Positions 1,652 to 58,495 of a stretch of DNA of 64,000 nt are shown piece after piece. The notes beneath the pieces are model-generated. The model had not been told where the DNA came from. It made no database searches and saw only the letters and a program-made list of their open reading frames with translations. This DNA comes from Escherichia coli phage AZ21, in sequence record LC788708.1. One strand, 5' to 3'. The translations under genes were made by a program, and so were the position numbers. Positions within the stretch are counted from its first letter, which is position 1. Every line of letters starts with the position of its first letter.

Positions 1652-1950
1652 TGAGAGATTTATTTTTAAAATTTAAAGATGGGGATGAAATGAGCCAACA
1701 GCTAAAGGCTATTGGTTTTATTCCTGATGAGTATGGTACCTTGACTCACCCCGATATCAATTTAGATATAATAGGTACTATATCAATTTTATCTGAGGTT
1801 ATTGACGAAGGTACAGATAATCAAACAGAAAAATATATTAAAAAAGAAGGATATCATGCTAATCTTCGAGTTATAGATGATGATATTGATTTAACTTCAT
1901 TAGAAGATTACCTAGTATACCCAGAAAATCCTGTAAGAGTGTGGGCATAA
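1651..1950 (+). CDS. Hypothetical small acidic protein between the two tail-fibre genes
   Basis: 99-aa ORF, ATG overlaps the upstream stop (TAATG), same strand and operon. Confidence 0.45.
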   Translation: MRDLFLKFKDGDEMSQQLKAIGFIPDEYGTLTHPDINLDIIGTISILSEVIDEGTDNQTEKYIKKEGYHANLRVIDDDIDLTSLEDYLVYPENPVRVWA

Positions 1951-1959
1951 GGAATTAAA

Positions 1960-4077
1960 ATGGCAAATAGAATCGATACAATTAATTTAACTAGTACTGA
2001 CGTTGCTGCCTTACCTGTATATGGTTTAATTACTACAGGAACAAATTTAAATACACTTGATGGGAGTGTGTATGGAAAGTATTGGCAATCTGAAAATGCT
2101 AACTCTCCTACTTCTCTTAACTATCCTGTTGCGGCTGCAGGTACATTACTAGTTTTAAAAAATAATGCAAGCAATTTAGCGACTTCTTGTACTCAAATTT
2201 ACTTACCTTATAATCGTAATGAGATATATAGTAGATCTTTTTACAATTCATGGACTGCATGGTCAAGATTTGCTAGTATAGACATGGATGGTGCCAACTC
2301 AACTATTAAATCTTTAACAGGTTTAACCACTGCACTTTCTATAGAACAAGGAGGTACTGGAGTAGTATCAAAAGAAGCTTTTAGACAAAGTTATAATGTG
2401 CCAACAAAAGACGAAAGCCTATTGACTAAAAATAATTTATCAGATTTAGCAGATCGCGCAGCTGCGTGGCTAAATGTTCGTCCTATTGGATCTACTCCCC
2501 TTGCGGGAGATCCAGTTAATGATTATGATGCTGTAACTAAGCGTTGGGTGGAGAACAAAATTAATACTGGCATAGTAGGACCCACAATGAATGGTGTCAT
2601 GAACTATGGTGTAGGTGATTTTCACCTTCGCGATAGCCGTGCGTATATTCAACCTTATGAGGTAGTTTCTGATGGGCAGCTTCTTAACAGGGCTGACTGG
2701 CCGGAGCTTTGGGCTTACGCTCAAATGGTGGGTGCTATAGATGATTCTAAATGGCTGGCTGATAAATTTCAGCGTGGCAAGTATTCTAAGGGTGATGGAT
2801 CAACTACATTCCGCGTTCCAGACCGTAACGGCGTTCAAGTCGGTTCATTAGCCGCTCTTTATGGGCGTGGCGACGGTGCAGGAAGTGGCACGGCAAACTC
2901 AAATGCCGATGGTCTAGTGTTCGATTCAGGCGTTCCCAACATCACTGGTGATGCAGGTGGCGTTATATCTTACGGCGCTAGTGGCGCATTTTTCTATTCG
3001 GGTCAAGGAGATACCGTTGTGGGTGCGCAGCCTGGTACAAACTTAGGTACGCAACGGCTTTCGTTAAATGCTGCGGGAAGTAGTGCGGTATACGGAAGAT
3101 GCGCTGATGAAATTATGGGGCGCAACTTCGTCGGCGTCTGGGTAATACGCGCATCAGGCGGGTTCGTTGCTGCGGATACGTCGTGGAGTGTTAAGAACGC
3201 CGATAAAGGCACCCCTCCACAGAATACCTCCGTTCGTGGTGGTGAAGTAGTATCGGAATATTCCAATCCAGCAGGTAAGCGGTTTGCTCGTCTATACTCT
3301 GATACTATCTGGGGCTCCTCGGGGGCGGCGATTATTGAGGCTGAGGGCTCTGCTAAGCACTCCTATAAGTTTTACGAAGATGGTACAGTAGACTTCCGCC
3401 AGTCAGGGAAGATTAACACCTTTCATATGCACACGCCTATGGGTACATGGAATGGTATTACGGATGCAGGAATGAACAACCTAAGTACCAACGGCATGGA
3501 TAGGATAGCCATTGCGAGCGGTTCCGACACAATCATTCGTGGTTATTCTATCGGTGGATATCGCCCTAACGGATACCCCACCAAGGTTGGATACCATATG
3601 TATATTCCAGGCAATAATGCATTTGGTATAGGTTGCGTGGTAATCGGTGGAGATAACGGTAAATTCTGTCGATACTTCCTTGACATTGATGGTCAAATAT
3701 ATGGTTCGACTGATTACGGGAACTTTAGTTATACAAAAAATGGTACTTCTGACTCACGTGTAAAACACGGCATCGCCCCTGTTGGAGTTGACAAATCATA
3801 CTCTAATATTAAAGGACTGGAATTTGTAGAGTTCATTTATGACAATGACGAACAAAATCGAGTTCGGCATGGCGTGATTGCACAGCAAGCAGAGGTTGTT
3901 GAGCCTTTGTATGTTAAGACGCGCAAATATGTTGGCAATAATCCAGGAGAGGTTGTGGAGCAGAAGGAGCTGGACACCACGCCGATGCTTCTGGATACCA
4001 TGCACGTTGTGCAGGTATTGATGCAGAGGATCGAAGCGATGGAAGCTGAGATTGCGGAATTAAAGGCAAGTAAGTAA
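1960..4077 (+). CDS. Tail fibre protein with C-terminal intramolecular-chaperone-like domain (LtfB-like)
   Basis: 705 aa; RBS ggaattaaaATG; Gly-rich body; C-terminus (GIAPVGVDKSYSNIKGLEFVEF...MLLDTMHVVQVLMQRIEAMEAEIAELK) resembles the self-cleaving chaperone module of phage fibres and tailspikes. Confidence 0.65.
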   Translation: MANRIDTINLTSTDVAALPVYGLITTGTNLNTLDGSVYGKYWQSENANSPTSLNYPVAAAGTLLVLKNNASNLATSCTQIYLPYNRNEIYSRSFYNSWTAWSRFASIDMDGANSTIKSLTGLTTALSIEQGGTGVVSKEAFRQSYNVPTKDESLLTKNNLSDLADRAAAWLNVRPIGSTPLAGDPVNDYDAVTKRWVENKINTGIVGPTMNGVMNYGVGDFHLRDSRAYIQPYEVVSDGQLLNRADWPELWAYAQMVGAIDDSKWLADKFQRGKYSKGDGSTTFRVPDRNGVQVGSLAALYGRGDGAGSGTANSNADGLVFDSGVPNITGDAGGVISYGASGAFFYSGQGDTVVGAQPGTNLGTQRLSLNAAGSSAVYGRCADEIMGRNFVGVWVIRASGGFVAADTSWSVKNADKGTPPQNTSVRGGEVVSEYSNPAGKRFARLYSDTIWGSSGAAIIEAEGSAKHSYKFYEDGTVDFRQSGKINTFHMHTPMGTWNGITDAGMNNLSTNGMDRIAIASGSDTIIRGYSIGGYRPNGYPTKVGYHMYIPGNNAFGIGCVVIGGDNGKFCRYFLDIDGQIYGSTDYGNFSYTKNGTSDSRVKHGIAPVGVDKSYSNIKGLEFVEFIYDNDEQNRVRHGVIAQQAEVVEPLYVKTRKYVGNNPGEVVEQKELDTTPMLLDTMHVVQVLMQRIEAMEAEIAELKASK

Positions 4078-44193: not shown

Positions 44194-44265
44194 GCCGTCC
44201 TAGTATAATTGGTATTATCAAGCCGTAACTGGTGGAAGATGTAGGTTCGAATCCTACGGTCGGTA
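44194..44265 (+). tRNA. tRNA-like gene with canonical T-arm but irregular acceptor/anticodon arms (possible degenerate tRNA)
   Basis: T-arm gtagg-ttcgaat-cctac and D-loop aattgg are present; acceptor gccgtcc/ggtcggt has one U-U mismatch; best anticodon stem has only 4 bp (loop gccgtaa); no encoded CCA. Confidence 0.4.
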
Positions 44266-44767
44266 AGAACTGGATAACTGATGCTTTTAACGTAAAAGCT
44301 TCCGAGGTTAGTTGCGCACTGCCTAAACCACGCGGTAGTTGGTTCCAGACTAACCAACCAGTCTGCTGAATAGTTTTATTACGATTTAACTATGTCCAGG
44401 CTAAAGAAGAACTTTAGAAGGTATTCTAGGATAGTGAAGTTCTTTCTCCACATCGGAGTAGTTTTTCAAGCTATCCACAAAGTGGGAAATGCTGACATGA
44501 GAGATGTCACTAATGGTGCACAATAGCACAGGTAATTCGCGATAATTCCTGTTGAGTAGCAGCAAAAGGCGGGAAGTCATGACCCCAAGCCTAACCGAGT
44601 CCTCAATATACCGCAGGGCATAACCACTAAGTCACCCTGACTTAAACTGGAAAATAATAGACGTTACTGTATTTTGTCTTGAAATACTTAATGAGTGAGA
44701 CTTATGACTCTCCCGGTATCGTCTGTATTTTTAAGAGTTTTTACGAGAGTTCTTAAAAATACTTAAA

Positions 44768-44842
44768 CGGGGTGTAGTCTAAGGGAGAGGCAGGAGTCTT
44801 CTAAATTCCTTTATGCAGGTTCGAATCCTGTCACCTCGGCCA
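44768..44842 (+). tRNA. tRNA-Arg (anticodon UCU)
   Basis: Acceptor cggggtg/cacctcg, D-stem gtct/aggc, anticodon stem ggagt/attcc with loop cTTCTAa, T-arm gcagg-ttcgaat-cctgt, discriminator g, encoded CCA. Confidence 0.8.
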
Positions 44843-44876
44843 ATTTTATTAACTGTAACTAAAACAAAGGAAACAT

Positions 44877-45824
44877 ATGTTTAATACTAAAAATATGAAA
44901 GAATTGACTTCTGAGCAGAAAGTAATTCGTACTATTAAACGTTGGGGTATTGGTGCTGTAGTTGGTTTAGCAGGTTTAATCCTAGCTTTTAATTCGTATA
45001 CCATTGTTTCTGATGGTACGGTTAAAACCCAAACATTCCTGGGTAAAGTAGACCCTAATCCAGTATTACCTGGTTTCCATCTTGTAAACCCGTTTGCATC
45101 TTTCGATACTTTTAGTACGAAAGATATTTCTATGAAACTGGATAAACTTCAGGTTCCTAGCCAGGATAAGTTTAAGTCTACAGTTGACATTACCGTTATG
45201 TTGCAGTTTGATGGTGCTAAAGCTCCTATTAACCGTGTTAACGCAGGTACTCAGGATCAAGCTCTGAACAAGTACGTTGAAGAGAAGATGCTGTCTACGA
45301 TTCGTGAGTTTGGTAAGTCTGTACCAAAAGCACAAGATCTGTTCGACGCTAAGATTCAGGCTCAACTGCAAACCGCTATTCAGCAAGAAGTAGAAGAGTA
45401 TGCGCGTCCTTATGGCTACACCGTTAAGCAAGTATTCCTTCAGGATATTACTCTGCCACCGGTAATCATGGAACAGGTACAAAACACCAAAGTTCGTGAA
45501 GAACAAGTTAACGCTGCAAAAGCTGAACTAGCTCGTGTTGAACAAGAAGCACAGCAGAAAGTTAAGCAAGCTGAGGCTGATCGTTCTGCTCGTGAAAATA
45601 TGGCAGTAGCTAACGAACGTGACGCAGATGCTAAACTGTATGCGGCTAAGAAAGAAGCTGAAGCTAACACCGCTCTGCAGCGTACCATCACTCCAGAGAT
45701 GATTCGCTGGAAACAGCTGGAAGTTGATATGAAACGCGCTGAAAAATATCAGGGTGGCGTTCCTCAGACTGTTGTAGGTACTGGTTATGATGGCCAGATG
45801 ATTATGGATATGCGTAATAAGTAA
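44877..45824 (+). CDS. SPFH/band-7 (prohibitin/HflC-like) membrane protein
   Basis: 315 aa; N-terminal TM helix IGAVVGLAGLILAF, SPFH core, C-terminal coiled-coil. Confidence 0.65.
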   Translation: MFNTKNMKELTSEQKVIRTIKRWGIGAVVGLAGLILAFNSYTIVSDGTVKTQTFLGKVDPNPVLPGFHLVNPFASFDTFSTKDISMKLDKLQVPSQDKFKSTVDITVMLQFDGAKAPINRVNAGTQDQALNKYVEEKMLSTIREFGKSVPKAQDLFDAKIQAQLQTAIQQEVEEYARPYGYTVKQVFLQDITLPPVIMEQVQNTKVREEQVNAAKAELARVEQEAQQKVKQAEADRSARENMAVANERDADAKLYAAKKEAEANTALQRTITPEMIRWKQLEVDMKRAEKYQGGVPQTVVGTGYDGQMIMDMRNK

Positions 45825-45847
45825 TAGTTACACGTAATCTTCGAAAC

Positions 45848-45882
45848 AAGCCCGCGTTTCCTCCGAGAGCGCGGGCTTTTCT
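45848..45882 (+). terminator. Rho-independent terminator
   Basis: aagcccgcg-loop-cgcgggctt followed by ttctg. Confidence 0.7.
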
Positions 45883-46027
45883 GTATTTAAGGCAAAAGAA
45901 AAGCCCATAAGTTATTCAACTAAGGTCTTTAGTACTTAATTCTTTAGAATCATATACTATTATTGCAGCAACAACGTGCTACCACTAAATGCCCTACGAT
46001 TTTCCTCTAAAAAGTTAAAAAATTCGA

Positions 46028-46056
46028 TTGCTTGAATGCTAAATTCTCTGTATAAT
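46028..46056 (+). promoter_or_regulatory. Sigma70-type early promoter
   Basis: ttgctt-17 nt-tataat-atatttataaatttgagagagg. Confidence 0.7.
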
Positions 46057-46086
46057 ATATTTATAAATTTGAGAGAGGAATCAAAT

Positions 46087-46383
46087 ATGAAACGCATTGT
46101 ACTTGCATTGACTCTAGTATCTACTTCTGTATTTGCTGCTCCACAACAGGAACTTTGTCAAGTTCAAGTTTGTAATAAGCTAGAACGATTTACTTTGGAT
46201 ATTTGGTCACACATTAAAGATAATATGGGTGAGCAATGTTTTGATATTGTTCTGCCAAAAGAACAAGCTGTTCCTGGTGCTGTTCTCAGCTCAGAATCAC
46301 GTTGGTGGCAAGGTTCTTCTATCAATCCAACTAAGAAGTCAGTGACACGTATCAAACAAGTGTATCAGTGCAGTGTTCAGTAA
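46087..46383 (+). CDS. Small secreted Cys-containing protein
   Basis: Signal peptide MKRIVLALTLVSTSVFAAPQ; 98 aa; start at ATG with RBS gagagagg. Confidence 0.5.
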   Translation: MKRIVLALTLVSTSVFAAPQQELCQVQVCNKLERFTLDIWSHIKDNMGEQCFDIVLPKEQAVPGAVLSSESRWWQGSSINPTKKSVTRIKQVYQCSVQ

Positions 46384-46391
46384 AATTTCAC

Positions 46392-46420
46392 TTGCTTAAT
46401 GCCGAAATTTTCTATATAAT
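46392..46420 (+). promoter_or_regulatory. Sigma70-type early promoter
   Basis: ttgctt-17 nt-tataat. Confidence 0.65.
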
Positions 46421-46451
46421 ATATTCTATAAATTATAGATAGGAGTCATAT

Positions 46452-46970
46452 ATGACTGTTGACGAGTTAAAACAACATCTTTTATCTAGGGGCTTTGATA
46501 GTGATAAGTATCACTGTTGGCTCTCTCCACATGGATGGTTAACAGTTCCACTGTATGATTTCTCTGGCATGTTACGTGGATATCAAACATATAACCCTAG
46601 TGCAGCTAAAGGTCATGGAAAATGTCCTTCTGAAGCTAAATATTTTACGCATTCTTCTACTCAATGTCTATGGGGTTTAGAAACTCTTACAGGTAATGAA
46701 GACCTAGTATTAGTTGCAGAATCTGTATTTAAAGCTGTGGCACTACACAACGCGGGATATCCCGCACTAGCAATGCTAGGATCTTCCCCTAGCAAAGCAC
46801 TGCTAAAGCAGCTAAAATTACAACCTTTTAAAGTAGTAGCCGTAGGCGATAATGATTCTGCTGGTGAGAAGTTTGCTAAAAAACTAAATGGGTTTACTTC
46901 CCTCATGGATTTAGATGAAATGAATACAGAAAACTTGAAAAATTTTCTTGCCATGAAGCTAAATTTCTAA
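46452..46970 (+). CDS. Hypothetical protein with TOPRIM-like segment
   Basis: 172 aa; LVLVAESVFKAVAL...VVAVGDNDSAGEKFAKKL resembles TOPRIM acidic motifs; the downstream tRNA promoter -35 lies within its 3' end. Confidence 0.4.
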   Translation: MTVDELKQHLLSRGFDSDKYHCWLSPHGWLTVPLYDFSGMLRGYQTYNPSAAKGHGKCPSEAKYFTHSSTQCLWGLETLTGNEDLVLVAESVFKAVALHNAGYPALAMLGSSPSKALLKQLKLQPFKVVAVGDNDSAGEKFAKKLNGFTSLMDLDEMNTENLKNFLAMKLNF

Positions 46971-46976
46971 TATAAT
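46948..46976 (+). promoter_or_regulatory. Sigma70-type promoter for tRNA-Ser/tRNA-Met pair
   Basis: ttgcca-17 nt-tataat-atattcataaattt immediately followed by the tRNA 5' end. Confidence 0.65.
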
Positions 46977-46990
46977 ATATTCATAAATTT

Positions 46991-47084
46991 GGAAGATTAA
47001 CCCTAAAGGTAAGGGAGCTGTTTGCTAAACAGCCAGTAGCTGTGGAGACACGGTGTGCCAGTTCGAATCTGGCATCTTCCTCCA
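46991..47084 (+). tRNA. tRNA-Ser (anticodon GCU), class II with long variable arm
   Basis: Acceptor ggaagat/atcttcc (7 bp), anticodon stem gctgt/acagc with loop tTGCTaa, long variable arm, T-arm gccag-ttcgaat-ctggc, encoded CCA. Confidence 0.8.
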
Positions 47085-47089
47085 AATTT

Positions 47090-47167
47090 GGTTCTCAAGC
47101 TCATTTGGTATGAGCCGTCGCCTCATAAGCGAAAGGTAGGCAGGTTCGAATCCTCCGGGAGCCACCA
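47090..47167 (+). tRNA. tRNA with CAU anticodon (Met or Ile-lysidine type)
   Basis: Acceptor ggttctc/gggagcc, D-stem gctc/gagc, anticodon loop cTCATaa, T-loop ttcgaat, encoded CCA; one non-WC pair in each of the anticodon and T stems. Confidence 0.6.
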
Positions 47168-47186
47168 AATTAAATAAGGACAACTA

Positions 47187-47375
47187 ATGGAATTATTCAT
47201 AGTTTCTATTAAATTTGCACAAGATAGAGAACATTCGGACGAGTTTAAACAAGGGTACAGACTAGTAAAGGCTACATCTGAACTACATGCTATGGACAAA
47301 GTAGTAGACTATATGTATAAAGTAGAAGACGTTTACTACGTCAATGCTTTAGAAGCCTCAAAAGTAATTAACTAG
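47187..47375 (+). CDS. Hypothetical protein
   Basis: 62-aa ORF with RBS aaggacaactaATG. Confidence 0.45.
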   Translation: MELFIVSIKFAQDREHSDEFKQGYRLVKATSELHAMDKVVDYMYKVEDVYYVNALEASKVIN

Positions 47376-47383
47376 GAGACTAT

Positions 47384-47569
47384 ATGTCCAAATTTCAAGA
47401 ACTCAAGCAAGAGCTAGAAGAGTGTGCCTGCCCAAAATGCTTCGGAGTAGGTGAGTGGAACGATGCTGAACCCGGTGATACACGGTATAATACATACGTT
47501 TGTACATATTGTAATGGTTCTGGTATTAATCCTGAATGTGGTATTTCTCTAGACATTGAGCGAGGTTAA
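47384..47569 (+). CDS. Small zinc-ribbon-like Cys-rich protein
   Basis: 61 aa; CACPKCFG ... CTYCNGSG. Confidence 0.45.
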   Translation: MSKFQELKQELEECACPKCFGVGEWNDAEPGDTRYNTYVCTYCNGSGINPECGISLDIERG

Positions 47570-47909
47570 GATGGATATTTTTACTACTCCGGCAATAAAC
47601 CTTTTAGGTGTTGGCTTGTTCCAAGCTACGGTGTATCGTACTGATGATTCTACTGATGTGGTAACGTTCATCGTACCTGAGTTCTTCCTAGAAAAGTTCT
47701 TTGAAGAGTTTGAGCAGTTCCGTGAAGAACACAATGCTCATTCCGATATGGAAGATCTAGCAGCTATGTTCCCTGCGGTTTACGGCTATATCTTTGAAGG
47801 TAATGGCCTAGATCTTAATAAATCTGAACTCGTTGAACTTAACTGGGGCATCAATTTTGAAGTTGGCTCTCCATTCCCTCGATATTTCCAGGGTTTAGAG
47901 ATTCGCTAA
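47556..47909 (+). CDS. Hypothetical acidic protein
   Basis: 117-aa ORF overlapping the upstream stop. Confidence 0.45.
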   Translation: MSEVKMDIFTTPAINLLGVGLFQATVYRTDDSTDVVTFIVPEFFLEKFFEEFEQFREEHNAHSDMEDLAAMFPAVYGYIFEGNGLDLNKSELVELNWGINFEVGSPFPRYFQGLEIR

Positions 47910-47917
47910 GATTACAT

Positions 47918-47994
47918 GGGGGTGTAATCGAATTGGCATAGGTACTGGACTTAAAATTCAGGTTTTGTGGGTTCGAATCCCACCACCCCTACCA
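47918..47994 (+). tRNA. tRNA with UAA anticodon (Leu by anticodon) but class I short variable arm
   Basis: Acceptor gggggtg/cacccct (7 bp), anticodon stem ctgga/ttcag with loop cTTAAaa, 5-nt variable loop, T-arm gtggg-ttcgaat-cccac, discriminator a, encoded CCA. Confidence 0.6.
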
Positions 47995-48009
47995 AATTAA
48001 GGAAATAAA

Positions 48010-48132
48010 ATGAAAGCTATTAAGAAAGCACTGCGTAAATTTATGTATTGTCGTTTTCATAGCATCAAGGCTTCAACTAATGGTACTACTTACGATCGCT
48101 ATGATCCTAAGTTTGGCTTACATTCTAAATAA
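48010..48132 (+). CDS. Possible small basic peptide (40 aa)
   Basis: RBS aaggaaataaaATG; below the ORF-track cutoff. Confidence 0.3.
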   Translation: MKAIKKALRKFMYCRFHSIKASTNGTTYDRYDPKFGLHSK

Positions 48133-48145
48133 CTGGAGAAAACAA

Positions 48146-48352
48146 ATGGCTAATCCTGAAATTACGGCACAACGCTTTATGCTGAAAGGAATTATTGCTG
48201 AAGCAGGCATGACAGAAGAAGTTGCAGATTTTCAAAAGCAATTCCTCAATATTCTCACTCAAGCCAAAGAGCTAGGAGAGAAAGAACATGGCGCGGCTAT
48301 TATGGCAATCACATTGGTTGGGCTTGATCTGGCTGAAGAATCAGGAGTTTAA
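48146..48352 (+). CDS. Hypothetical protein
   Basis: 68 aa from MANPEITAQ with RBS ctggagaaaacaaATG. Confidence 0.45.
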   Translation: MANPEITAQRFMLKGIIAEAGMTEEVADFQKQFLNILTQAKELGEKEHGAAIMAITLVGLDLAEESGV

Positions 48353-48382
48353 CTCCTCCAAGCAGAAATTTTAAAAATGTAC

Positions 48383-48412
48383 TTGCTTTTTGCTTAAGAT
48401 TTCTGCTATAAT
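48383..48412 (+). promoter_or_regulatory. Sigma70-type early promoter
   Basis: ttgctt-18 nt-tataat-agttatataagttgatgagagg. Confidence 0.6.
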
Positions 48413-48441
48413 AGTTATATAAGTTGATGAGAGGAATCAGA

Positions 48442-48717
48442 ATGTTAAAACGTTTTGCAGCAACTGGTATTGAAAGCTCAGTATGTAAATCCTGGGGTGG
48501 TTGGGAAGGTGAGATCGAGTGGCTTCAGTTCTACAATGTAGAACTTCTTCCAGAGATCAAAGCTCAATGTATTGAGGCTGGTATGGCTCCTGATGCTACG
48601 GCTGATGTTGAAATCAGCATGAATAAGCTAGAGGGTCGAGTAGTCACTGTTACTGATGAAGGTGAAGAGGTATTCGAACTTCCATTCACTTTGAAAGTCA
48701 CTCCTTCATTTGATTAA
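48442..48717 (+). CDS. Hypothetical acidic protein
   Basis: 91 aa from MLKRFAAT. Confidence 0.5.
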   Translation: MLKRFAATGIESSVCKSWGGWEGEIEWLQFYNVELLPEIKAQCIEAGMAPDATADVEISMNKLEGRVVTVTDEGEEVFELPFTLKVTPSFD

Positions 48718-48753
48718 CTGATACAGCACTGAGCAAGTTCTTTAAAATTTGAC

Positions 48754-48782
48754 TTGCTCAGTGCCTTAAAACTTGATATAAT
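48754..48782 (+). promoter_or_regulatory. Sigma70-type promoter upstream of tRNA-Tyr
   Basis: ttgctc-17 nt-tataat. Confidence 0.55.
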
Positions 48783-48847
48783 ATTTATCTAATTTGGAAA
48801 CATATTTAAAAGTGTTTAAATGAGAATTTTTGAATACTTCTAAATAT

Positions 48848-48935
48848 GGGCGTTTATTCCGTAAGTGGTAGCGGAGGGGATTGTAAATCCCTGGTCATTG
48901 CGACTCGAGTGGTTCGACTCCATTAACGCCCACCA
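48848..48935 (+). tRNA. tRNA-Tyr (anticodon GUA), class II
   Basis: Acceptor gggcgtt/aacgccc (7 bp), D-stem tccg/cgga, anticodon stem gggga/tccct with loop tTGTAaa, long variable arm, T-arm agtgg-ttcgact-ccatt, encoded CCA. Confidence 0.75.
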
Positions 48936-48952
48936 AATTAAAGGTAAAGGAT

Positions 48953-49144
48953 ATGTATATTGATCGGATAATTCAAGAAGCTGCAAATAGGGGTATTATA
49001 CAGTTGGGTTCACCCGCTGATATAAATAAAGATCTAATATTAGAAAGCCTCACATTTGGTACAGCTAACTTTGGTCGCGATAGTAATCGTCGATATAGCT
49101 TGAAGTTATCTGCACTATCTTTTATCAAGTATAACAAATTATAG
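48953..49144 (+). CDS. Hypothetical protein
   Basis: 63-aa ORF between two tRNAs; stop overlaps the next tRNA 5' end. Confidence 0.4.
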   Translation: MYIDRIIQEAANRGIIQLGSPADINKDLILESLTFGTANFGRDSNRRYSLKLSALSFIKYNKL

Positions 49145-49218
49145 TTAGTTGGCAGAGTGGTTATGCACCTCCTTCATACGGAGCGACTACAGTGGTTCAA
49201 CTCCACTACTAACTACCA
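49143..49218 (+). tRNA. tRNA with CAU anticodon (second copy; Met/fMet or Ile2)
   Basis: Acceptor agttagt/actaact (7 bp), anticodon stem ctcc/ggag with loop tTCATac, T-arm agtgg-ttcaact-ccact, encoded CCA. Confidence 0.7.
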
Positions 49219-53016: not shown

Positions 53017-53715
53017 ATGAGGATTATTTCTAAGTTCGCCGATGTGTATGATTTGCAGAACAGTTTGTTCGACCCAGATCGTGTTTGGGAACGTAAAACT
53101 GAAGAGTTGCTGGTTAAAGTAACCGATGATGCAGAAAAGAACATTGTGCATACTCGCCAGGTATTTCGTGATGGTTCGCTATCTTTCCGTGGTGATTTCG
53201 AATATTTTGTAAACCCACTATTTGTTGCAGGTGAAGTTTACTGGTTACACGAGCTGTACTGCTGGCATCCAGCATTTAGCTTCAAAACGTTTAATCTCGA
53301 CACTATGTTCGATAAAATGGAAGAGATGGGATTACATGCTCGCTCTTACTTAATGGATAAGAGTCGTGGAGATGTTCGTGAAACAGTACGTGATTTGCTC
53401 TCTGAAGCAAAACCTAAAGCAGAACGTATCTTATCCGAACTGCGTGTACCGATTGCATATGTGAAAGGTATTAAGAAGAACGATAACGATGATGTTCGTA
53501 ACTTCGTGATTCAGACTAACATTCGTTTCCATCAGTCAGGTATTCCGTGGCAGGAAATTGAAAGTAACTTATACCGTTTACACCAAGTTCTCGAACAGTA
53601 TATCTTCGGTGTACTAGGAACTGGTGAGCCTGATATGATTAAAGTATCAGATAAAGACAGGTTAGCAGCGCATGGATTTGATACAAAAACTTCTTTCAGG
53701 AATATGGCACGGTAA
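53017..53715 (+). CDS. Hypothetical protein
   Basis: 232-aa ORF. Confidence 0.5.
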   Translation: MRIISKFADVYDLQNSLFDPDRVWERKTEELLVKVTDDAEKNIVHTRQVFRDGSLSFRGDFEYFVNPLFVAGEVYWLHELYCWHPAFSFKTFNLDTMFDKMEEMGLHARSYLMDKSRGDVRETVRDLLSEAKPKAERILSELRVPIAYVKGIKKNDNDDVRNFVIQTNIRFHQSGIPWQEIESNLYRLHQVLEQYIFGVLGTGEPDMIKVSDKDRLAAHGFDTKTSFRNMAR

Positions 53716-54121
53716 GTGGTATATCCTGGGAGCAGGTCTAGCGATAGGCATCGGGTTCGGTGCTTATCACTTAGTAGATAAAGTGGAGACTTTAGCAGGA
53801 GATCTTGCGGTAGCTACTAAAAAGATTTCTTCTCTAGAAACTTCCCTTAATAAGGTGAAAGCTGAAAGTGAACTTCGGGAGACTCGGATGAATCAGTATT
53901 TCACGATGAATAATACTTCTCAAGCAGATCTAGACAAAAAGATTAAGCAGTTAGATAAAGCTCTTAGTCGACAAGATATTATAGCTGCAAAGCCTGGATT
54001 GGTAACATTAATTGCTAAAAAGCAGAGTAAAGAGTTCGAGGAAAGATTAGCGTGTTTAACTGGAAACTTGGAATACTGCTCGCAGCCGCAATCACAATCA
54101 CAGGCTGTGCAGAAGAAATAA
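53672..54121 (+). CDS. Putative i-spanin (Rz-like): N-terminal TM helix plus coiled-coil
   Basis: 149 aa; TM WYILGAGLAIGIGFGAY then coiled-coil; overlaps the next lipoprotein gene. Confidence 0.5.
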   Translation: MDLIQKLLSGIWHGKWYILGAGLAIGIGFGAYHLVDKVETLAGDLAVATKKISSLETSLNKVKAESELRETRMNQYFTMNNTSQADLDKKIKQLDKALSRQDIIAAKPGLVTLIAKKQSKEFEERLACLTGNLEYCSQPQSQSQAVQKK

Positions 54122-54405
54122 AACCAGAGCCATCTCATGAGTTAAAGCAAGCTCATGTAGACTGGCCTAAAGGACTTCAACCTTGTAGCTTTGACTTTAA
54201 GTTTGAAAAGAAATTAGCTACAAATGGAGAAGATGGCGTAGTAGTTGTTGTACCATACAAAGATTGGAATGCAAAAGCAAAATGTGAGGAAGCAGTTTAC
54301 TCTTACATTTCACGACTGACTGGTATGGTTTGCTTCTATCGCCAAGATTTACAAGAAAAACGTTGCTTAGTTTACTATCCACCAATTAACAATAGGAAAG
54401 ATTAA
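54052..54405 (+). CDS. Putative o-spanin (Rz1-like outer-membrane lipoprotein)
   Basis: GTG start; lipoprotein signal LGILLAAAITITGC (lipobox ITGC); start embedded in the 3' end of the preceding gene. Confidence 0.5.
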   Translation: MFNWKLGILLAAAITITGCAEEIKPEPSHELKQAHVDWPKGLQPCSFDFKFEKKLATNGEDGVVVVVPYKDWNAKAKCEEAVYSYISRLTGMVCFYRQDLQEKRCLVYYPPINNRKD

Positions 54406-55157
54406 TGTCAGTATTAGTCGGTTTACATGGTGAAGCTGGTTCGGGAAAAGATACCGTTGCAAAATTAATTATCGATTGGTGTAATGACACGTATCCAACG
54501 TGTTTATCCCGTCGTTATAGTTTTGCTAAGCCCGTTTATGAACTTGCATCCGTAATCCTCGGTGTAACTCCGGAGTTTCTAGGAGAGCGCAGGGGAAAAG
54601 AGATTGACCAATGGTTTACTGTCACACAATCTCAATTGGAGCGAGCCAGAGATGTGTGGTTTAAGTACGGTATCGATAAGTTTGAAGACTTCTCGTACAT
54701 TTGGCCTATTTTTGAGGAAAAGTATCTTAATCCTCAACAACTTATCTCAGAGAATAAAGAAGACGGATTTTATAGTTTATTTATTTCTCCGAGAAAAATG
54801 TTACAGCTCGTAGGGACAGAGCTAGGAAGGCAGCTGGTGCATGAACGCATTTGGCTCATAATTCTGGAGCAATCCATCGCTAAAGACGACCCAGATGTCG
54901 CCGTAATAACAGATGTTAGATTCCCCAATGAAGGAGAGTTACTCAGAGAAACAAACCATTTAGATATGGATTCTTTGATAGTAAATGTAGTACCCGCTGA
55001 GCAGAAGTTCACTATTAAATCAGATCATCCATCTGAAAGTGGTATTCCTGCAAAATATATTACTCACGAATTAGTTAATAAATTCGATGGTATCAATAAC
55101 CTTAAACTAGAAGTTTATAACTTCTGTGACTTAGAGCTAGAACCACTAGTTGGATAA
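54405..55157 (+). CDS. Deoxynucleoside monophosphate kinase-like P-loop kinase
   Basis: 250 aa; N-terminal Walker A GLHGEAGSGKDT. Confidence 0.6.
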   Translation: MSVLVGLHGEAGSGKDTVAKLIIDWCNDTYPTCLSRRYSFAKPVYELASVILGVTPEFLGERRGKEIDQWFTVTQSQLERARDVWFKYGIDKFEDFSYIWPIFEEKYLNPQQLISENKEDGFYSLFISPRKMLQLVGTELGRQLVHERIWLIILEQSIAKDDPDVAVITDVRFPNEGELLRETNHLDMDSLIVNVVPAEQKFTIKSDHPSESGIPAKYITHELVNKFDGINNLKLEVYNFCDLELEPLVG

Positions 55158-55169
55158 TCAAGGATCGCT

Positions 55170-55769
55170 ATGACTAATAAAAAAGAAGAAAAGACTAACC
55201 TGTTTCACTCCATTCGCCAATCTAACGAGTATACCTTTTTCTTTGATGAAGAATTAGGCCCGCCTGATGAATACCGTGATTTATCAATGGTACTTATGCA
55301 GGCAAATGAGGACGACGAAATTAATCTGATGATTAATGGCCCAGGTGGTTATGTTGATACTGCTGCACAGTTAGCTAACTTAATTGCTAATTGCCGTGGA
55401 ACAGTTATAGGGCATCTGATTGGTCCTAGTGCTTCTGCTTACTGCACAATTTTCCTATCCTGTCATGGATGGGTAGTACATCCACATGCTACGTTAATGG
55501 GACACACGTTCTCTGGCGGATTCTGTGAGAAAGGTCAGGAAATCAAGAAAGCCTATGAATCTTACAACAAGTTTGTAGAAGATATGATGCTAGATGTCTA
55601 CTATCCCTTTTTCTCAATAGATGAAATCGACGAGATGGTAAAAGACAACAAAAATATCTATCTAGATAGCAAGGAAATCCATAAGCGTATTGAAATCTTG
55701 GCGAAATATCGATCTGAGCAATATAATAAAGCCCAGTTACCTCAATCCGAGGAGTACAACGAAGAGTAA
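55170..55769 (+). CDS. ClpP-like serine peptidase (S14 family)
   Basis: LMINGPGGYV (ClpP INSPGG-type) and IGPSASAYCTIF (GxxAS active-site Ser region), downstream His. Confidence 0.55.
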   Translation: MTNKKEEKTNLFHSIRQSNEYTFFFDEELGPPDEYRDLSMVLMQANEDDEINLMINGPGGYVDTAAQLANLIANCRGTVIGHLIGPSASAYCTIFLSCHGWVVHPHATLMGHTFSGGFCEKGQEIKKAYESYNKFVEDMMLDVYYPFFSIDEIDEMVKDNKNIYLDSKEIHKRIEILAKYRSEQYNKAQLPQSEEYNEE

Positions 55770-55778
55770 GTAATTTTA

Positions 55779-55810
55779 AGCCAGGGTTTAACGACCCTGG
55801 CTTTTCTTTT
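55779..55810 (+). terminator. Rho-independent terminator
   Basis: agccagggtt-taacg-accctggct followed by tttctttt. Confidence 0.8.
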
Positions 55811-55925
55811 ATCTAAAATTCTTCTTGACAACGACAAAATTTTGTGCTCCAAAGAAAATCTTTAAAAACACATTGTAATTTTCCTCCAAAATTAGTATAA
55901 TGGTACTGGTTAGAGGAGGTTACAA

Positions 55926-56582
55926 TTGGAAAAGTTCTTACAATTATTAACGGTACTGCTCCAAGAAGCGAAAGATCCAGCATCGCTTCTTAAACGTCTG
56001 CTAACTATCTTAGTTGCTGTCATTATTTTCTTATTTGTTAGTAATACTAGCGAGGTGATGTCATTCTTAAAGACTTTCTCCACGTCTGCGGTTCTACAGG
56101 ATGTTCAAACTCAAAGGATAGATAACTTTCCTAATGTAGCTAGAGAAAAGAGCATGGTACTCTTTTCTCAAACGGGTGCGGATGCTGTTTTTGTAGTCAA
56201 GTATAAACCCGATGCCATTAATGATTATTCTAACATTATTGCATGGGAAAGCAATGCGCAATTAGATAGGGCTGACTTGGCCGATAAAGCAGTAAATAAA
56301 ACGTCTGAGCTATACAGACGTCACTTAGAGGGCTTTAACTACGCATCGGATTTAAGTGTAAGAGTAAATAAATATACGGGGTTAAATATACCTGCGTTTA
56401 AGAACGTTACTTTTAATTACATATACACTTGTCCATATTTCAATCTAAACAATATCTATGCTGGATATATTGGTATTGCTTGGAAAGATAATCCTGTAGA
56501 TGCAGCCGATTCTGAGAGATTTAAGGAATATTTAACAAAGCTCTGTTCTCCACAACAGAGATCTTTAGGTAGATCAATATGA
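55926..56582 (+). CDS. Putative holin (membrane protein immediately upstream of the endolysin)
   Basis: TTG start after RBS gaggagg; 218 aa with N-terminal TM helix; stop overlaps the endolysin start. Confidence 0.55.
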   Translation: MEKFLQLLTVLLQEAKDPASLLKRLLTILVAVIIFLFVSNTSEVMSFLKTFSTSAVLQDVQTQRIDNFPNVAREKSMVLFSQTGADAVFVVKYKPDAINDYSNIIAWESNAQLDRADLADKAVNKTSELYRRHLEGFNYASDLSVRVNKYTGLNIPAFKNVTFNYIYTCPYFNLNNIYAGYIGIAWKDNPVDAADSERFKEYLTKLCSPQQRSLGRSI

Positions 56583-56992
56583 GTTTTAAATTTGGTAAAA
56601 ATAGCGAAAAACAATTAGCTACCGTTAAGCCAGAGCTACAAAAAGTAGCTCGTAGAGCGTTAGAATTATCCCCATATGATTTCACAATCGTACAGGGTAT
56701 TCGTACAGTAGCACAAAGTGCCCAGAATATTGCTAATGGTACTTCATTTTTAAAAGATCCTAGTAAAAGCAAGCATATTACTGGGGATGCGCTTGATTTT
56801 GCTCCATATATTAATGGCAAAATTGATTGGAATGACTTAGAAGCATTTTGGGCGGTTAAAAAGGCTTTTGAACAAGCGGGTAAAGAACTAGGTATTAAAC
56901 TTCGTTTTGGTGCTGATTGGAATAATTCTGGAGACTATCACGATGAAATAAAACGTGGTACCTATGATGGCGGTCATGTCGAACTAGTTTAA
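56579..56992 (+). CDS. Endolysin, L-alanyl-D-glutamate peptidase (M15-like zinc peptidase)
   Basis: 137 aa; SKHITGDALD ... DGGHVE (His-Asp-His zinc triad pattern). Confidence 0.8.
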   Translation: MSFKFGKNSEKQLATVKPELQKVARRALELSPYDFTIVQGIRTVAQSAQNIANGTSFLKDPSKSKHITGDALDFAPYINGKIDWNDLEAFWAVKKAFEQAGKELGIKLRFGADWNNSGDYHDEIKRGTYDGGHVELV

Positions 56993-57003
56993 TTAATAAT
57001 TGA

Positions 57004-57026
57004 GGCGGGAATATTCCCGCCTTTTT
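57004..57026 (+). terminator. Rho-independent terminator
   Basis: ggcggga-atat-tcccgcc followed by ttttt. Confidence 0.8.
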
Positions 57027-57069: not shown

Positions 57070-57486
57070 ATGTTTGCAGAACTATTCACTATGATGCTGC
57101 TAAGTATCTGGAAAATAAGTCTAGTAGTATTCGTTTTAATGATAGTCTTTACTATCCTTGCATTAACTACCCGAAATAGCTTATTAATAAAGGTTATTCA
57201 CGGACTAGAGTATATAATTATGGGTTCATTCGGCGTTTGTAAATGCAATTGCCATAGAGATACGAAATATTGTTGGTTATGGATGGAACTAGAGAATCCT
57301 ATATCCATAGCTTTGGCTGTTTCATTCGGCATGATTCTTATGGCCCTTACTCTAGCATTAATACCTTTGATGTTAGCTGGGGGAGTTACAGCGTATTTCA
57401 CCCTTTTCTCCCCGATACTTATGTACTCAATTTACCCGATAACTATGTATCTAGTTAGGAAAAGATTTATCCATGCAGTAGATTAA
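57070..57486 (+). CDS. Hypothetical multi-pass membrane protein
   Basis: 138 aa, four hydrophobic segments. Confidence 0.5.
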   Translation: MFAELFTMMLLSIWKISLVVFVLMIVFTILALTTRNSLLIKVIHGLEYIIMGSFGVCKCNCHRDTKYCWLWMELENPISIALAVSFGMILMALTLALIPLMLAGGVTAYFTLFSPILMYSIYPITMYLVRKRFIHAVD

Positions 57487-57563: not shown

Positions 57564-57992
57564 ATGTCTGATCGTTTCTATACTCAAATGGCGGAACATT
57601 TTCGTATACCACATTACGAGCTAAACATTGCACTCCGTGATCATGACTCTCCTGAGTACAAAAAGCTCGAAAAGAAAGCGGAAAAATCTATTGATACAAA
57701 GGTAGGTGCATCTATGTCTAAGGGCAAAAAGTTAACTCGTCTTGATCTTAATAAAATTTTAACTGAACTTTTGGGTACTGATATTGAAGGTGCTAAATTA
57801 CCGCTTCTTGTACTAGAGACTATGATTAAAAAGGTCAAAAATAAAGAATATAAGAAGGTAGAAGTCCCGGAAGGCAGATTAAAAGCTCCTTATCAGGAAG
57901 CATTAACCGAGTGTTTGGGTGTAAATCTTGATCTGAGCACCGCAACCGTAAAAACTATGAAAAACTTCTTAGAGGCCATTAATAAATTGTGA
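57564..57992 (+). CDS. Hypothetical protein
   Basis: 142-aa Lys-rich ORF. Confidence 0.5.
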   Translation: MSDRFYTQMAEHFRIPHYELNIALRDHDSPEYKKLEKKAEKSIDTKVGASMSKGKKLTRLDLNKILTELLGTDIEGAKLPLLVLETMIKKVKNKEYKKVEVPEGRLKAPYQEALTECLGVNLDLSTATVKTMKNFLEAINKL

Positions 57993-58495
57993 TTACTAGG
58001 GAAAGATTATTAGAGGTACTAGAGTATCACGAAGATGGTACTCTAACCTGGAAACCTAGACCAGAAGGTACAAGAGGTTGGAATACCAGCCTTAACAATA
58101 TGCCTGCTGGGTCTATTAATGCTGATGGCTATCTAATGCTCTCTATTGATAGAGAACGAATACTTGCGCATAGGGCAATCTTCTTTATGCACAAAGGCTA
58201 TTTACCTGATATAGTAGATCATGATGATACCAATACTCTAGATAATCGTATTGGTAACTTAAGAGAAGCTACAAAAGCTCAAAATGCTTTTAATAGGAAA
58301 TCGGCTAATAAAAATAACCTATTGGGATTAAAAAATATATCTCAAAGAGGGAAGTCTTTTAGAGTAAAAATCTCTAGGGCAGGAATCAATTATATGAAAA
58401 CGTGCAGTTCTTTGGAAGAAGCAATTGCATGGAGAGATGAAAAACTAGAAGAACTCCACGGTGAGTTTGCCAGCAAAGGAAATAAAAATGTCTAA
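57989..58495 (+). CDS. HNH homing endonuclease-like protein
   Basis: 168 aa; HRAIFFMHKGYLPDIVDHDDTNTLDNRIGNLREATKAQNAFN matches HNH_3-type motif. Confidence 0.65.
   Translation: MITRERLLEVLEYHEDGTLTWKPRPEGTRGWNTSLNNMPAGSINADGYLMLSIDRERILAHRAIFFMHKGYLPDIVDHDDTNTLDNRIGNLREATKAQNAFNRKSANKNNLLGLKNISQRGKSFRVKISRAGINYMKTCSSLEEAIAWRDEKLEELHGEFASKGNKNV

What the first reader, a model, noticed from the sequence alone, without database searches (positions are those of the whole stretch)
53672..54405. Candidate spanin pair with embedded start, separated from the holin-endolysin cassette by two metabolic genes
ORF 53672..54121 has an N-terminal TM helix plus coiled-coil (i-spanin-like). The next gene starts with GTG inside its 3' end and encodes a lipoprotein signal with lipobox ITGC (o-spanin-like). 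The holin-like gene and endolysin lie 1.5 kb downstream (55926..56992), after dNMP kinase and ClpP-like genes, so the lysis functions appear split.
Basis: inference. Interest (0 to 1): 0.4.

Follow-up and report, generated by a model that had tools for sequence, protein, structure and literature searches.

The report
Known T5-type overlapping spanin gene pair
These two overlapping genes are the well-documented spanin pair of T5-like phages, the proteins that break the bacterial outer membrane at the last step of lysis.

Summary
ORF 53672..54121 (149 aa) has one N-terminal transmembrane helix followed by a heptad-repeat helical region. ORF 54052..54405 (117 aa, GTG start) begins 70 nt inside it in another frame and encodes a lipoprotein signal with lipobox ITGC.

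The window is 100% identical to E. coli phage AZ23, a Tequintavirus. The two proteins are 93% and 92% identical to phage T5 T5.045 and T5.044, which RefSeq annotates as Rz-like spanins. They match PHROG spanin families 739 and 812 (E 1e-37 and 3.5e-30).

Kongari et al. 2018 (PMC6139136) already define a "T5 family" of i- and o-spanins with overlapped architecture and a 70-bp overlap, exactly as seen here. Both proteins are also distant homologues of T4 PseT.3 and PseT.2, which complement lambda Rz/Rz1 mutants. The two essential PseT.2 cysteines are conserved.

The order spanins, dNMP kinase, ClpP-like protease, terminator, promoter, holin, endolysin recurs in all four Demerecviridae genera examined. 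The "split" is therefore the family norm.

Verdict: correct interpretation, already known, low interest.

The parts
53672..54121 (+). i-spanin gene (149 aa plus stop), homologue of T5.045
   Evidence: ORF. 93% identity to T5.045. PHROG 739 Rz-like spanin, E 1.1e-37. BLASTP to T4 PseT.3, E 2e-6.
53720..53776 (+). N-terminal transmembrane helix of the i-spanin (residues 17-35, YILGAGLAIGIGFGAYHLV)
   Evidence: Only 19-residue windows with mean Kyte-Doolittle above 1.4. Identical in T5, WP85 and Shivani.
53777..53896 (+). Heptad-repeat (coiled-coil-like) part of the periplasmic domain (residues ~36-75)
   Evidence: Crude heptad score 0.93 versus 0.54 +/- 0.09 in shuffles; 1 of 2000 shuffles reached it. 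Weak Pfam match to the coiled-coil protein Spc19.
53990..54004 (+). KPGLV motif of the i-spanin (residues 107-111)
   Evidence: K107, P108 and L110 are the only invariant columns from T5-like phages to T4 PseT.3.
54038..54045 (+). Shine-Dalgarno-like GAGGAAAG for the o-spanin, inside the i-spanin gene
   Evidence: Read from the sequence. Identical in seven Tequintavirus sequences.
54052..54121 (+). 70-nt overlap. It encodes the i-spanin C-terminal tail (ACLTGNLEYCSQPQSQSQAVQKK, with C128 and C136) in one frame. In the other frame it encodes the o-spanin signal peptide, its lipobox and the first four or five residues after the lipobox Cys.
   Evidence: The same 70-bp overlap is stated for T5 in PMC6139136.
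54052..54405 (+). o-spanin gene (117 aa plus stop, GTG start), homologue of T5.044
   Evidence: ORF. 92% identity to T5.044. PHROG 812 Rz-like spanin, E 3.5e-30. BLASTP to T4 PseT.2, E 3e-7.
54097..54108 (+). Lipobox ITGC (residues 16-19); Cys19 is the predicted lipidated first residue of the mature protein
   Evidence: Regex and PROSITE-like rule. G18-C19 is invariant across Demerecviridae and T4.
54331..54366 (+). C-terminal cysteine pair C94...C105 of the o-spanin
   Evidence: Aligns with T4 PseT.2 C87/C98, both essential for lysis in PMC6139136.
54405..55157 (+). dNMP kinase gene (T5 dnk homologue). Context: same transcription unit as the spanins.
   Evidence: Pfam DNMK, E 1.5e-11. PHROG 139. 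T5.043 synteny.
55170..55769 (+). ClpP-like protease gene (T5.042 homologue). Context.
   Evidence: Pfam CLP_protease, E 2.3e-8. PHROG 1827, E 2e-89.
55778..55803 (+). Intrinsic terminator hairpin (11-bp stem plus T run) ending the unit that contains the spanins
   Evidence: Scan result. Same position as the terminator annotated in T5, Sugarland and PR1.
55873..55901 (+). Sigma-70-like promoter (TTGTAA, 17 nt spacer, TATAAT) for the holin-endolysin unit
   Evidence: Scan, 10 of 12 matches. Same position as the promoter annotated in T5.
55926..56582 (+). T-type holin gene (218 aa, TTG start after GAGGAGG)
   Evidence: Pfam Phage_holin_T, E 3e-112. Start region is the same in T5.
56579..56992 (+). 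Endolysin gene (137 aa, M15 peptidase, T5 lys homologue)
   Evidence: PHROG 465, E 1.3e-54, and Pfam Peptidase_M15_4. T5.040 synteny.
57004..57026 (+). Terminator-like hairpin GGCGGG-AATATT-CCCGCC followed by TTTTT after the endolysin
   Evidence: Read from the sequence. The scan did not report it. Its position matches the terminator annotated after T5 lys.

Best explanation
The two genes encode the two-component spanin of a T5-like phage, the orthologues of T5.045 and T5.044.

Proposed mechanism (steps are marked as shown here or inferred):
- The i-spanin inserts into the inner membrane through its single N-terminal helix, with its helical, partly coiled-coil domain in the periplasm (topology predicted from sequence).
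- The o-spanin is translated from an internal GTG in another frame. It is exported, lipidated at Cys19 and cleaved by signal peptidase II. Because residue +2 is Ala, the Lol system sorts it to the inner leaflet of the outer membrane (inferred from the lipobox rules).
- The C-terminal parts of the two proteins bind each other, forming a complex that spans the periplasm through the peptidoglycan mesh. Disulfide bonds stabilise it, including the C94/C105 pair conserved with T4 PseT.2 (inferred by homology).
- The T-type holin permeabilises the inner membrane and the M15 endolysin degrades the murein. The complexes are then free to move and change conformation, and they fuse or disrupt the outer membrane to complete lysis (inferred from work on lambda Rz/Rz1 and T4 PseT.3/PseT.2).
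- The spanin genes sit in one transcription unit with the T5.047 homologue, dnk and the ClpP-like gene. The holin and endolysin form a separate two-gene unit with their own promoter and terminators. This is shown at the level of sequence signals and conserved annotation, not of transcripts.
For: Identity of the phage and genes:
- The window is 100% identical to Tequintavirus AZ23.
- 93% and 92% protein identity to T5.045 and T5.044, annotated as Rz-like spanins.
- PHROG 739 and 812, 'Rz-like spanin', E 1e-37 and 3.5e-30.
- Many relatives are annotated i-spanin/o-spanin.

Literature:
- PMC6139136 lists a T5 family among both i- and o-spanins and states that the T5 spanins overlap by 70 bp. That is the overlap found here.
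- PMC6658699 and PMC4342426 describe overlapping or T5-like spanin pairs in the T5-like phages Sepoy and Shivani.

Protein features:
- Transmembrane helix, heptad region, lipobox ITGC and +2 Ala.

Link to tested proteins:
- Pairwise homology to T4 PseT.2 (E 3e-7) and PseT.3 (E 2e-6), with the two PseT.2 cysteines aligned.
- T4 PseT.3/PseT.2 complemented lambda RzamRz1am, and both cysteines were essential (PMC6139136).

Conservation:
- Purifying selection in both frames and a more constrained overlap.
- The i-spanin, o-spanin, dnk, protease, holin, endolysin order is conserved in T5, Sugarland, PR1 and Stubb.
Against: - I found no direct experiment on the T5-family pair itself. A full-text search for T5.044, T5.045, T5p044 and T5p045 gave no papers.
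- There is no Pfam or NCBIfam family for either protein and no solved structure of a relative.
- The transmembrane, lipoprotein and coiled-coil calls rest on simple rules, not on TMHMM, LipoP or COILS. The positive-inside signal at the transmembrane helix is weak: net +1 on the N-terminal side and -1 on the C-terminal side.
- Homology to the tested T4 pair is distant (25-29% identity).
Confidence: 0.93

Rival explanations
1. The 117-aa lipoprotein is a receptor-blocking or superinfection-exclusion lipoprotein, as T5 Llp or the Cor proteins are. On this reading the upstream membrane protein is functionally unrelated.
For: T5-like phages do encode a small early lipoprotein with that role (Llp, mentioned in PMC4342426). 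The pair lies in a unit with early-type genes such as dnk rather than next to the holin.
Against: - The only PHROG match is the spanin family 812.
- It is homologous to T4 PseT.2, including the essential cysteine pair.
- It is always coupled, usually by a 70-nt overlap, to a type II membrane protein homologous to T4 PseT.3.
- I did not compare the protein with Llp directly.
Confidence: 0.03
2. The 149-aa protein is an FtsL-like or other bitopic coiled-coil membrane protein that interferes with host cell division, not a lysis protein.
For: Sub-threshold NCBIfam match to FtsL (E 1.8e-4, 21 bits against a cut-off of 50). The two share a topology: an N-terminal transmembrane helix plus a coiled coil.
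Against: - The match is far below the curated cut-off and covers only the transmembrane helix and the first heptads, a generic feature.
- There is a strong PHROG spanin match.
- The KPGLV motif and overall homology are shared with T4 PseT.3.
- The gene overlaps an outer-membrane lipoprotein gene.
Confidence: 0.02
3. The genes are conserved but dispensable relics, and disruption of the outer membrane in T5-like phages is done by another factor.
For: No direct genetics on the T5 pair was found. PMC6139136 discusses spanin-less phages.
Against: - There is clear purifying selection in both frames across Tequintavirus.
- The pair is conserved across four Demerecviridae genera with the lipobox and cysteines intact.
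- No other spanin-like gene was noticed in the stretch I examined in detail (window 51.4-58.8 kb). The rest of the window was not screened for one.
Confidence: 0.02

Closest known systems
Phage T5 spanin pair T5.045 / T5.044: the 'T5 family' of i- and o-spanins in Kongari et al. 2018 (PMC6139136), PHROG 739 / 812
   Same: - 93% and 92% protein identity.
- Same 70-nt overlap, same Shine-Dalgarno sequence, same lipobox and cysteines.
- Same neighbours: the T5.047 homologue upstream, and dnk, ClpP-like protease, holin and lys downstream.
   Different: - The o-spanin starts with GTG instead of ATG.
- The first ~14 residues of the i-spanin differ. T5 carries the HNH gene hegF immediately upstream, whereas here the i-spanin start lies 44 nt inside the T5.047 homologue.
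- There are a handful of substitutions.
Phage T4 PseT.3 / PseT.2 two-component spanin (experimentally tested)
   Same: - Detectable homology of both partners (E 2e-6 and 3e-7).
- Shared KPGLV motif in the i-spanin.
- Lipobox and the C-terminal C-x10-C pair in the o-spanin.
- Not adjacent to the holin or endolysin.
   Different: - In T4 the genes share only the 4 nt where the stop and start codons meet, and PMC6139136 classes them as 'separated'.
- T4 PseT.3 has no cysteine and lacks the C-terminal CLTGN..YC tail. Here that tail is encoded in the overlap.
- The T5-type o-spanin has two extra cysteines (C45, C78) and a longer C-terminus.
- Identity is only 25-29%.
- Kongari et al. list the T4 and T5 groups as separate families.
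Phage lambda Rz / Rz1
   Same: Same functional class and topology: a type II inner-membrane protein with a coiled coil, plus an outer-membrane lipoprotein encoded in another frame of the same DNA (PMC6139136).
   Different: - No sequence similarity: the Pfam scan gave no match above threshold, only a sub-threshold match to an unrelated coiled-coil family (Spc19).
- Rz1 is wholly embedded in Rz and is described as unstructured. From my own recollection, not from a tool, its mature form is about 40 aa and proline-rich. The o-spanin here is 99 aa when mature and runs 284 nt beyond the i-spanin stop.
- The lambda genes directly follow S and R.
Shivani / phiR201 variant of the T5 spanin family
   Same: Near-identical periplasmic domains of both spanins (PMC6139136).
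   Different: In those phages a ~700-bp insertion, annotated as a hypothetical protein and described as a GIY-YIG homing endonuclease gene in PMC6139136, separates the two genes. It replaces the i-spanin tail and the start of the o-spanin signal peptide. The window has the uninterrupted overlapped form.

Membership tests
Two-component spanin (functional class) | i-spanin: bitopic inner-membrane protein with a single N-terminal transmembrane helix | tested here: met
   One hydrophobic segment, residues 17-35, mean Kyte-Doolittle 1.55, and none elsewhere. This is a rule-based prediction only. The N-in orientation is only weakly supported by flanking charge.
Two-component spanin (functional class) | i-spanin periplasmic domain is helical with coiled-coil propensity | tested here: met
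   Heptad score 0.93 versus 0.54 +/- 0.09 in shuffles; 1 of 2000 shuffles reached it, residues ~36-75. This is my own crude score, not COILS.
Two-component spanin (functional class) | o-spanin: signal peptidase II lipoprotein signal with a lipobox Cys and an outer-membrane sorting residue (+2 not Asp) | tested here: met
   MFNWK / LGILLAAAITI / ITG|C, with +2 Ala. G18-C19 is invariant in seven homologues, including T4. LipoP was not available.
Two-component spanin (functional class) | Gene pair in embedded, overlapped or separated arrangement, with the i-spanin first | tested here: met
   Overlapped: 70 nt shared, different frames.
Two-component spanin (functional class) | Periplasmic cysteines able to form intermolecular disulfides | tested here: met
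   i-spanin C128 and C136; o-spanin C45, C78, C94 and C105. Their presence is shown; bond formation is not testable here.
Two-component spanin (functional class) | i-/o-spanin complex formation and outer-membrane disruption (complementation of lambda Rz/Rz1 mutants) | not testable with these tools
   Shown only for the distant homologues T4 PseT.3/PseT.2 (PMC6139136).
T5 spanin family (Kongari 2018; PHROG 739 / 812) | Sequence similarity of both partners to T5.045 / T5.044 | tested here: met
   93% and 92% identity. PHROG E 1e-37 and 3.5e-30.
T5 spanin family (Kongari 2018; PHROG 739 / 812) | Overlapped architecture with a 70-bp overlap | tested here: met
   54052..54121 is 70 nt. PMC6139136 states that the T5 spanins overlap by 70 bp.
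T5 spanin family (Kongari 2018; PHROG 739 / 812) | Conserved genomic position upstream of dnk, the ClpP-like protease, the holin and the endolysin | tested here: met
   Same order in T5, WP85, Sugarland, PR1 and Stubb.
T4 PseT.3 / PseT.2 spanin family | Homology of both partners, with the two C-terminal o-spanin cysteines conserved | tested here: met
   BLASTP E 3e-7 and 2e-6. C94/C105 align with C87/C98.
T4 PseT.3 / PseT.2 spanin family | Cysteine-free i-spanin and separated gene architecture | tested here: not met
   The i-spanin has C128 and C136 in a tail absent from PseT.3, and the genes overlap by 70 nt. I therefore file it as a distant relative, not a member. Kongari et al. also keep the families apart.
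Lambda Rz / Rz1 sequence families | Match to the Pfam models for Rz or Rz1 | tested here: not met
   No spanin or lysis Pfam family matched either protein. The i-spanin gave only a sub-threshold match to Spc19, and the o-spanin gave none.

The most novel reading that the evidence does not exclude
The T5-type spanin may differ mechanistically from both tested models in two ways.

1. Its i-spanin carries a C-x7-C tail, conserved across Demerecviridae, that is encoded entirely within the overlap and is absent from T4 PseT.3. Its o-spanin has two extra cysteines in Tequintavirus. Together these could give a different disulfide architecture.

2. In every Demerecviridae genus examined, the pair is co-transcribed with dnk and a ClpP-like protease rather than with the holin and endolysin. 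Spanin complexes may therefore be laid down well before lysis, or the protease may take part in the timing of lysis.

Neither idea is excluded by my evidence, and neither is supported beyond conservation.
Probability: 0.15. Interest if true: 0.3.

Novelty: already known. Interest (0 to 1): 0.08.

Why it matters
It matters little beyond annotation. The exact source record, AZ23 (LC788707), labels both genes "hypothetical protein". Many T5-like records annotate only one spanin, mislabel the o-spanin as an i-spanin, or miss it altogether. A correct call therefore helps curation.

The T5-family spanins have apparently never been tested directly. A simple lambda complementation experiment would close that gap, but the result is expected.

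Tried and rejected
- Pfam gave no family for either spanin; the only match was a sub-threshold one to the coiled-coil protein Spc19.
- NCBIfam gave only a sub-threshold FtsL match for the i-spanin and nothing for the o-spanin. I rejected the FtsL match as generic similarity between a transmembrane helix plus coiled coil.
- A sequence search of the PDB found no relative of either protein.
- A full-text search for T5.044, T5.045, T5p044 and T5p045 returned no papers. Searches for T5-like spanin papers returned only genome announcements and the Kongari survey.
- The terminator scan missed the hairpin after the endolysin, so I read it by eye.
- I deliberately did not run the large protein-database searches, the structure predictions or the metagenome scans. 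Identity with a described family was already settled and those runs could not change the verdict.
- I considered and rejected three alternatives: an Llp-like exclusion lipoprotein, an FtsL-like division protein and a dispensable relic (see the rival explanations).

Full report
**What the window is.** The 4.1-kb stretch around the finding is 100% identical to Escherichia coli phage AZ23 (LC788707; Demerecviridae, Markadamsvirinae, Tequintavirus). It is 80-99% identical to about 450 other T5-like phage records. Window position equals AZ23 position minus 1912.

**Check of the observation.** Both ORFs are present as described.
- ORF 53672..54121 (ATG, 149 aa) has a single hydrophobic segment, YILGAGLAIGIGFGAYHLV, at residues 17-35.
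- A stretch with strong heptad periodicity follows at residues ~36-75. Its score is 0.93, against 0.54 +/- 0.09 in 2000 shuffles, and one shuffle reached it.
- ORF 54052..54405 (117 aa) starts at a GTG. This is the only canonical start codon (ATG/GTG/TTG) between the upstream in-frame stop and the signal peptide. GAGGAAAG lies about 10 nt upstream.
- Its N-terminus, MFNWK-LGILLAAAITI-TG|C, satisfies the lipobox rule as ITGC, with Cys19. Residue +2 is Ala, the outer-membrane sorting type.
- The genes share 70 nt in different frames.

The GTG start is well supported. T5, Bf23, oldekolle, KS_S14 and 3sent1 have ATG at the same position, and the A-to-G change is synonymous in the i-spanin frame.

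Across seven Tequintavirus sequences, variable sites concentrate at third positions of the called frames. The counts are 43/112 versus 7/113 for the i-spanin and 40/95 versus 10/95 for the o-spanin. The overlap is about half as variable as the flanks, at 11% of sites versus 19-21%. Both frames are therefore real coding sequence under purifying selection.

**What it is.**
- The proteins are 93% and 92% identical to T5.045 and T5.044. RefSeq annotates these as Rz-like spanins, with notes pointing to T4 PseT.2 and related proteins.
- They match PHROG 739 and 812, both "Rz-like spanin", with E 1.1e-37 and 3.5e-30.
- Many relatives are annotated i-spanin/o-spanin.
- The survey by Kongari et al. 2018 (PMC6139136) lists a "T5 family" among both i-spanins and o-spanins. 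It classes seven members, including T5, as overlapped, and states that "the T5 spanins overlap by 70 bp". That is the overlap measured here.
- Genome announcements for the T5-like phages Sepoy ("an overlapping spanin pair", PMC6658699) and Shivani (PMC4342426) say the same.

**Link to experiment.** I found no direct experiment on the T5 pair itself. Both proteins are, however, detectably homologous to the T4 spanins. The o-spanin matches PseT.2 with E 3e-7, and the i-spanin matches PseT.3 with E 2e-6.
- The C94...C105 pair aligns with PseT.2 C87/C98.
- A KPGLV motif is shared by the i-spanins.
- In PMC6139136, pseT.3 and pseT.2 complemented a lambda Rz-am Rz1-am lysogen, and both PseT.2 cysteines were essential.

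The T5 type differs from T4 in four respects:
- It has the 70-nt overlap.
- Its i-spanin has a C-terminal CLTGN..YC tail, conserved across Demerecviridae, that is encoded in the overlap.
- Its o-spanin has two further cysteines.
- Its o-spanin has a longer C-terminus.

It is therefore a member of the T5 family and a distant relative of the T4 family. It is unrelated in sequence to lambda Rz/Rz1.

**Surroundings and the "split".** Downstream lie, in order:
- the dNMP kinase (54405..55157; Pfam DNMK);
- a ClpP-like protease homologue (55170..55769);
- a strong terminator hairpin (55778..55803);
- a promoter-like TTGTAA-17-TATAAT (55873..55901);
- the T-type holin (55926..56582, TTG start after GAGGAGG; Pfam E 3e-112);
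- the M15 endolysin (56579..56992);
- another terminator-like hairpin (57004..57026).

These rest. The T5 record annotates a terminator and a promoter at the same relative places.

The same gene order occurs in Klebsiella phage Sugarland, Providencia phage PR1 and Proteus phage Stubb, which represent three other Demerecviridae genera. The separation of the spanins from the holin and endolysin is thus real, but it is the family norm. T4 scatters its lysis genes even more widely (PMC6139136).

**Mechanism.** I infer the mechanism from the lambda and T4 work. The i-spanin is anchored in the inner membrane and the lipidated o-spanin in the outer membrane. Their C-terminal regions bind across the periplasm, and disulfides stabilise the complex. 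After the holin triggers and the endolysin removes the murein, the complex disrupts or fuses the outer membrane. The sequence features that each step requires are shown here. The interactions and the phenotype are inferred.

**Rivals.** Three alternatives are each unlikely. The first is an Llp-like exclusion lipoprotein. The second is an FtsL-like division protein, suggested only by a sub-threshold 21-bit NCBIfam match. The third is a dispensable relic. All three run against the specific homology, the obligatory pairing and the selection pattern.

**Verdict.** Two terminological corrections apply: the architecture is "overlapped", not "embedded", and the ClpP-like gene is a protease, not a metabolic gene. 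The feature is already known, so interest is low. Its only practical value is annotation, because the AZ23 record calls both genes hypothetical, and many T5-like records miss or mislabel the o-spanin.

Noticed in passing
window 53017..53715 / 53672: T5 carries the HNH homing-endonuclease gene hegF (T5.046) between T5.047 and the i-spanin gene, and the window lacks it. Here the i-spanin ATG lies 44 nt inside the T5.047 homologue, and the first ~14 residues of the i-spanin differ from T5. Presence or absence of the endonuclease gene has remodelled the cytoplasmic N-terminus of the spanin. Records that match only from query base 32 onward may share the T5-type junction.
   Followed up: partly
L009 (Shivani) 1476..2921: In Shivani a ~700-bp ORF separates the i- and o-spanin genes, turning the overlapped pair into a separated one. 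It replaces the i-spanin tail and the first residues of the o-spanin signal peptide (MHKIK instead of MFNWK). This is already discussed in PMC6139136.
   Followed up: partly
window 57989..58495: An HNH_3 endonuclease ORF (168 aa, Pfam E 3.4e-13) sits between the T5.038 homologue and the thioredoxin gene. T5 and WP85 have no gene there, so this is probably another mobile homing-endonuclease insertion.
   Followed up: partly
window 55926..56582; L001 5559..6083: The holin starts at TTG 55926, just after GAGGAGG, as in T5 (218 aa). The WP85 record annotates only a 174-aa version starting at an internal Met, which removes the predicted transmembrane segment. That is probably an annotation error in that record.
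   Followed up: partly
window 55813..55983 (- strand): A 56-aa minus-strand ORF annotated as a CDS in WP85 lies over the terminator/promoter spacer and the start of the holin gene. It is most likely spurious.
   Followed up: no
window ~54585..54592 (inside dnk): The sequence around the major single-strand interruption (nick) annotated in T5 dnk, GAGCGCAG, is conserved here. The 61-nt region is 96% identical.
   Followed up: partly
window 55170..55769: The ClpP-like protein keeps a Ser and a His aligned with the catalytic Ser and His of E. coli ClpP, so it may be an active protease. The gene is conserved between the spanin and holin units in all four Demerecviridae genera examined, and its role is unknown.
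   Followed up: partly
window 57070..57486: A conserved 138-aa protein lies immediately downstream of the endolysin terminator. It is the T5.039 homologue, annotated in T5 with four transmembrane domains, and belongs to PHROG 5944 of unknown function. I did not examine whether it has any role in lysis.
   Followed up: no
window 44194..49218: Only six or seven tRNA genes were detected in the window, all between 44.2 and 49.2 kb. One (44194..44265) was found by Rfam only, and two by ARAGORN only. I did not compare this set with other T5-like phages.
   Followed up: no
public records: Annotation of this locus in T5-like records is inconsistent. Both genes are 'hypothetical' in AZ23. In several Salmonella phage records only an 'i-spanin' label lies over the o-spanin ORF. 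In PR1 the i-spanin is called 'outer membrane lipoprotein i-spanin' and appears to be annotated without its transmembrane segment. In 3sent1 the o-spanin is annotated from an internal start, which removes the signal peptide.
   Followed up: partly
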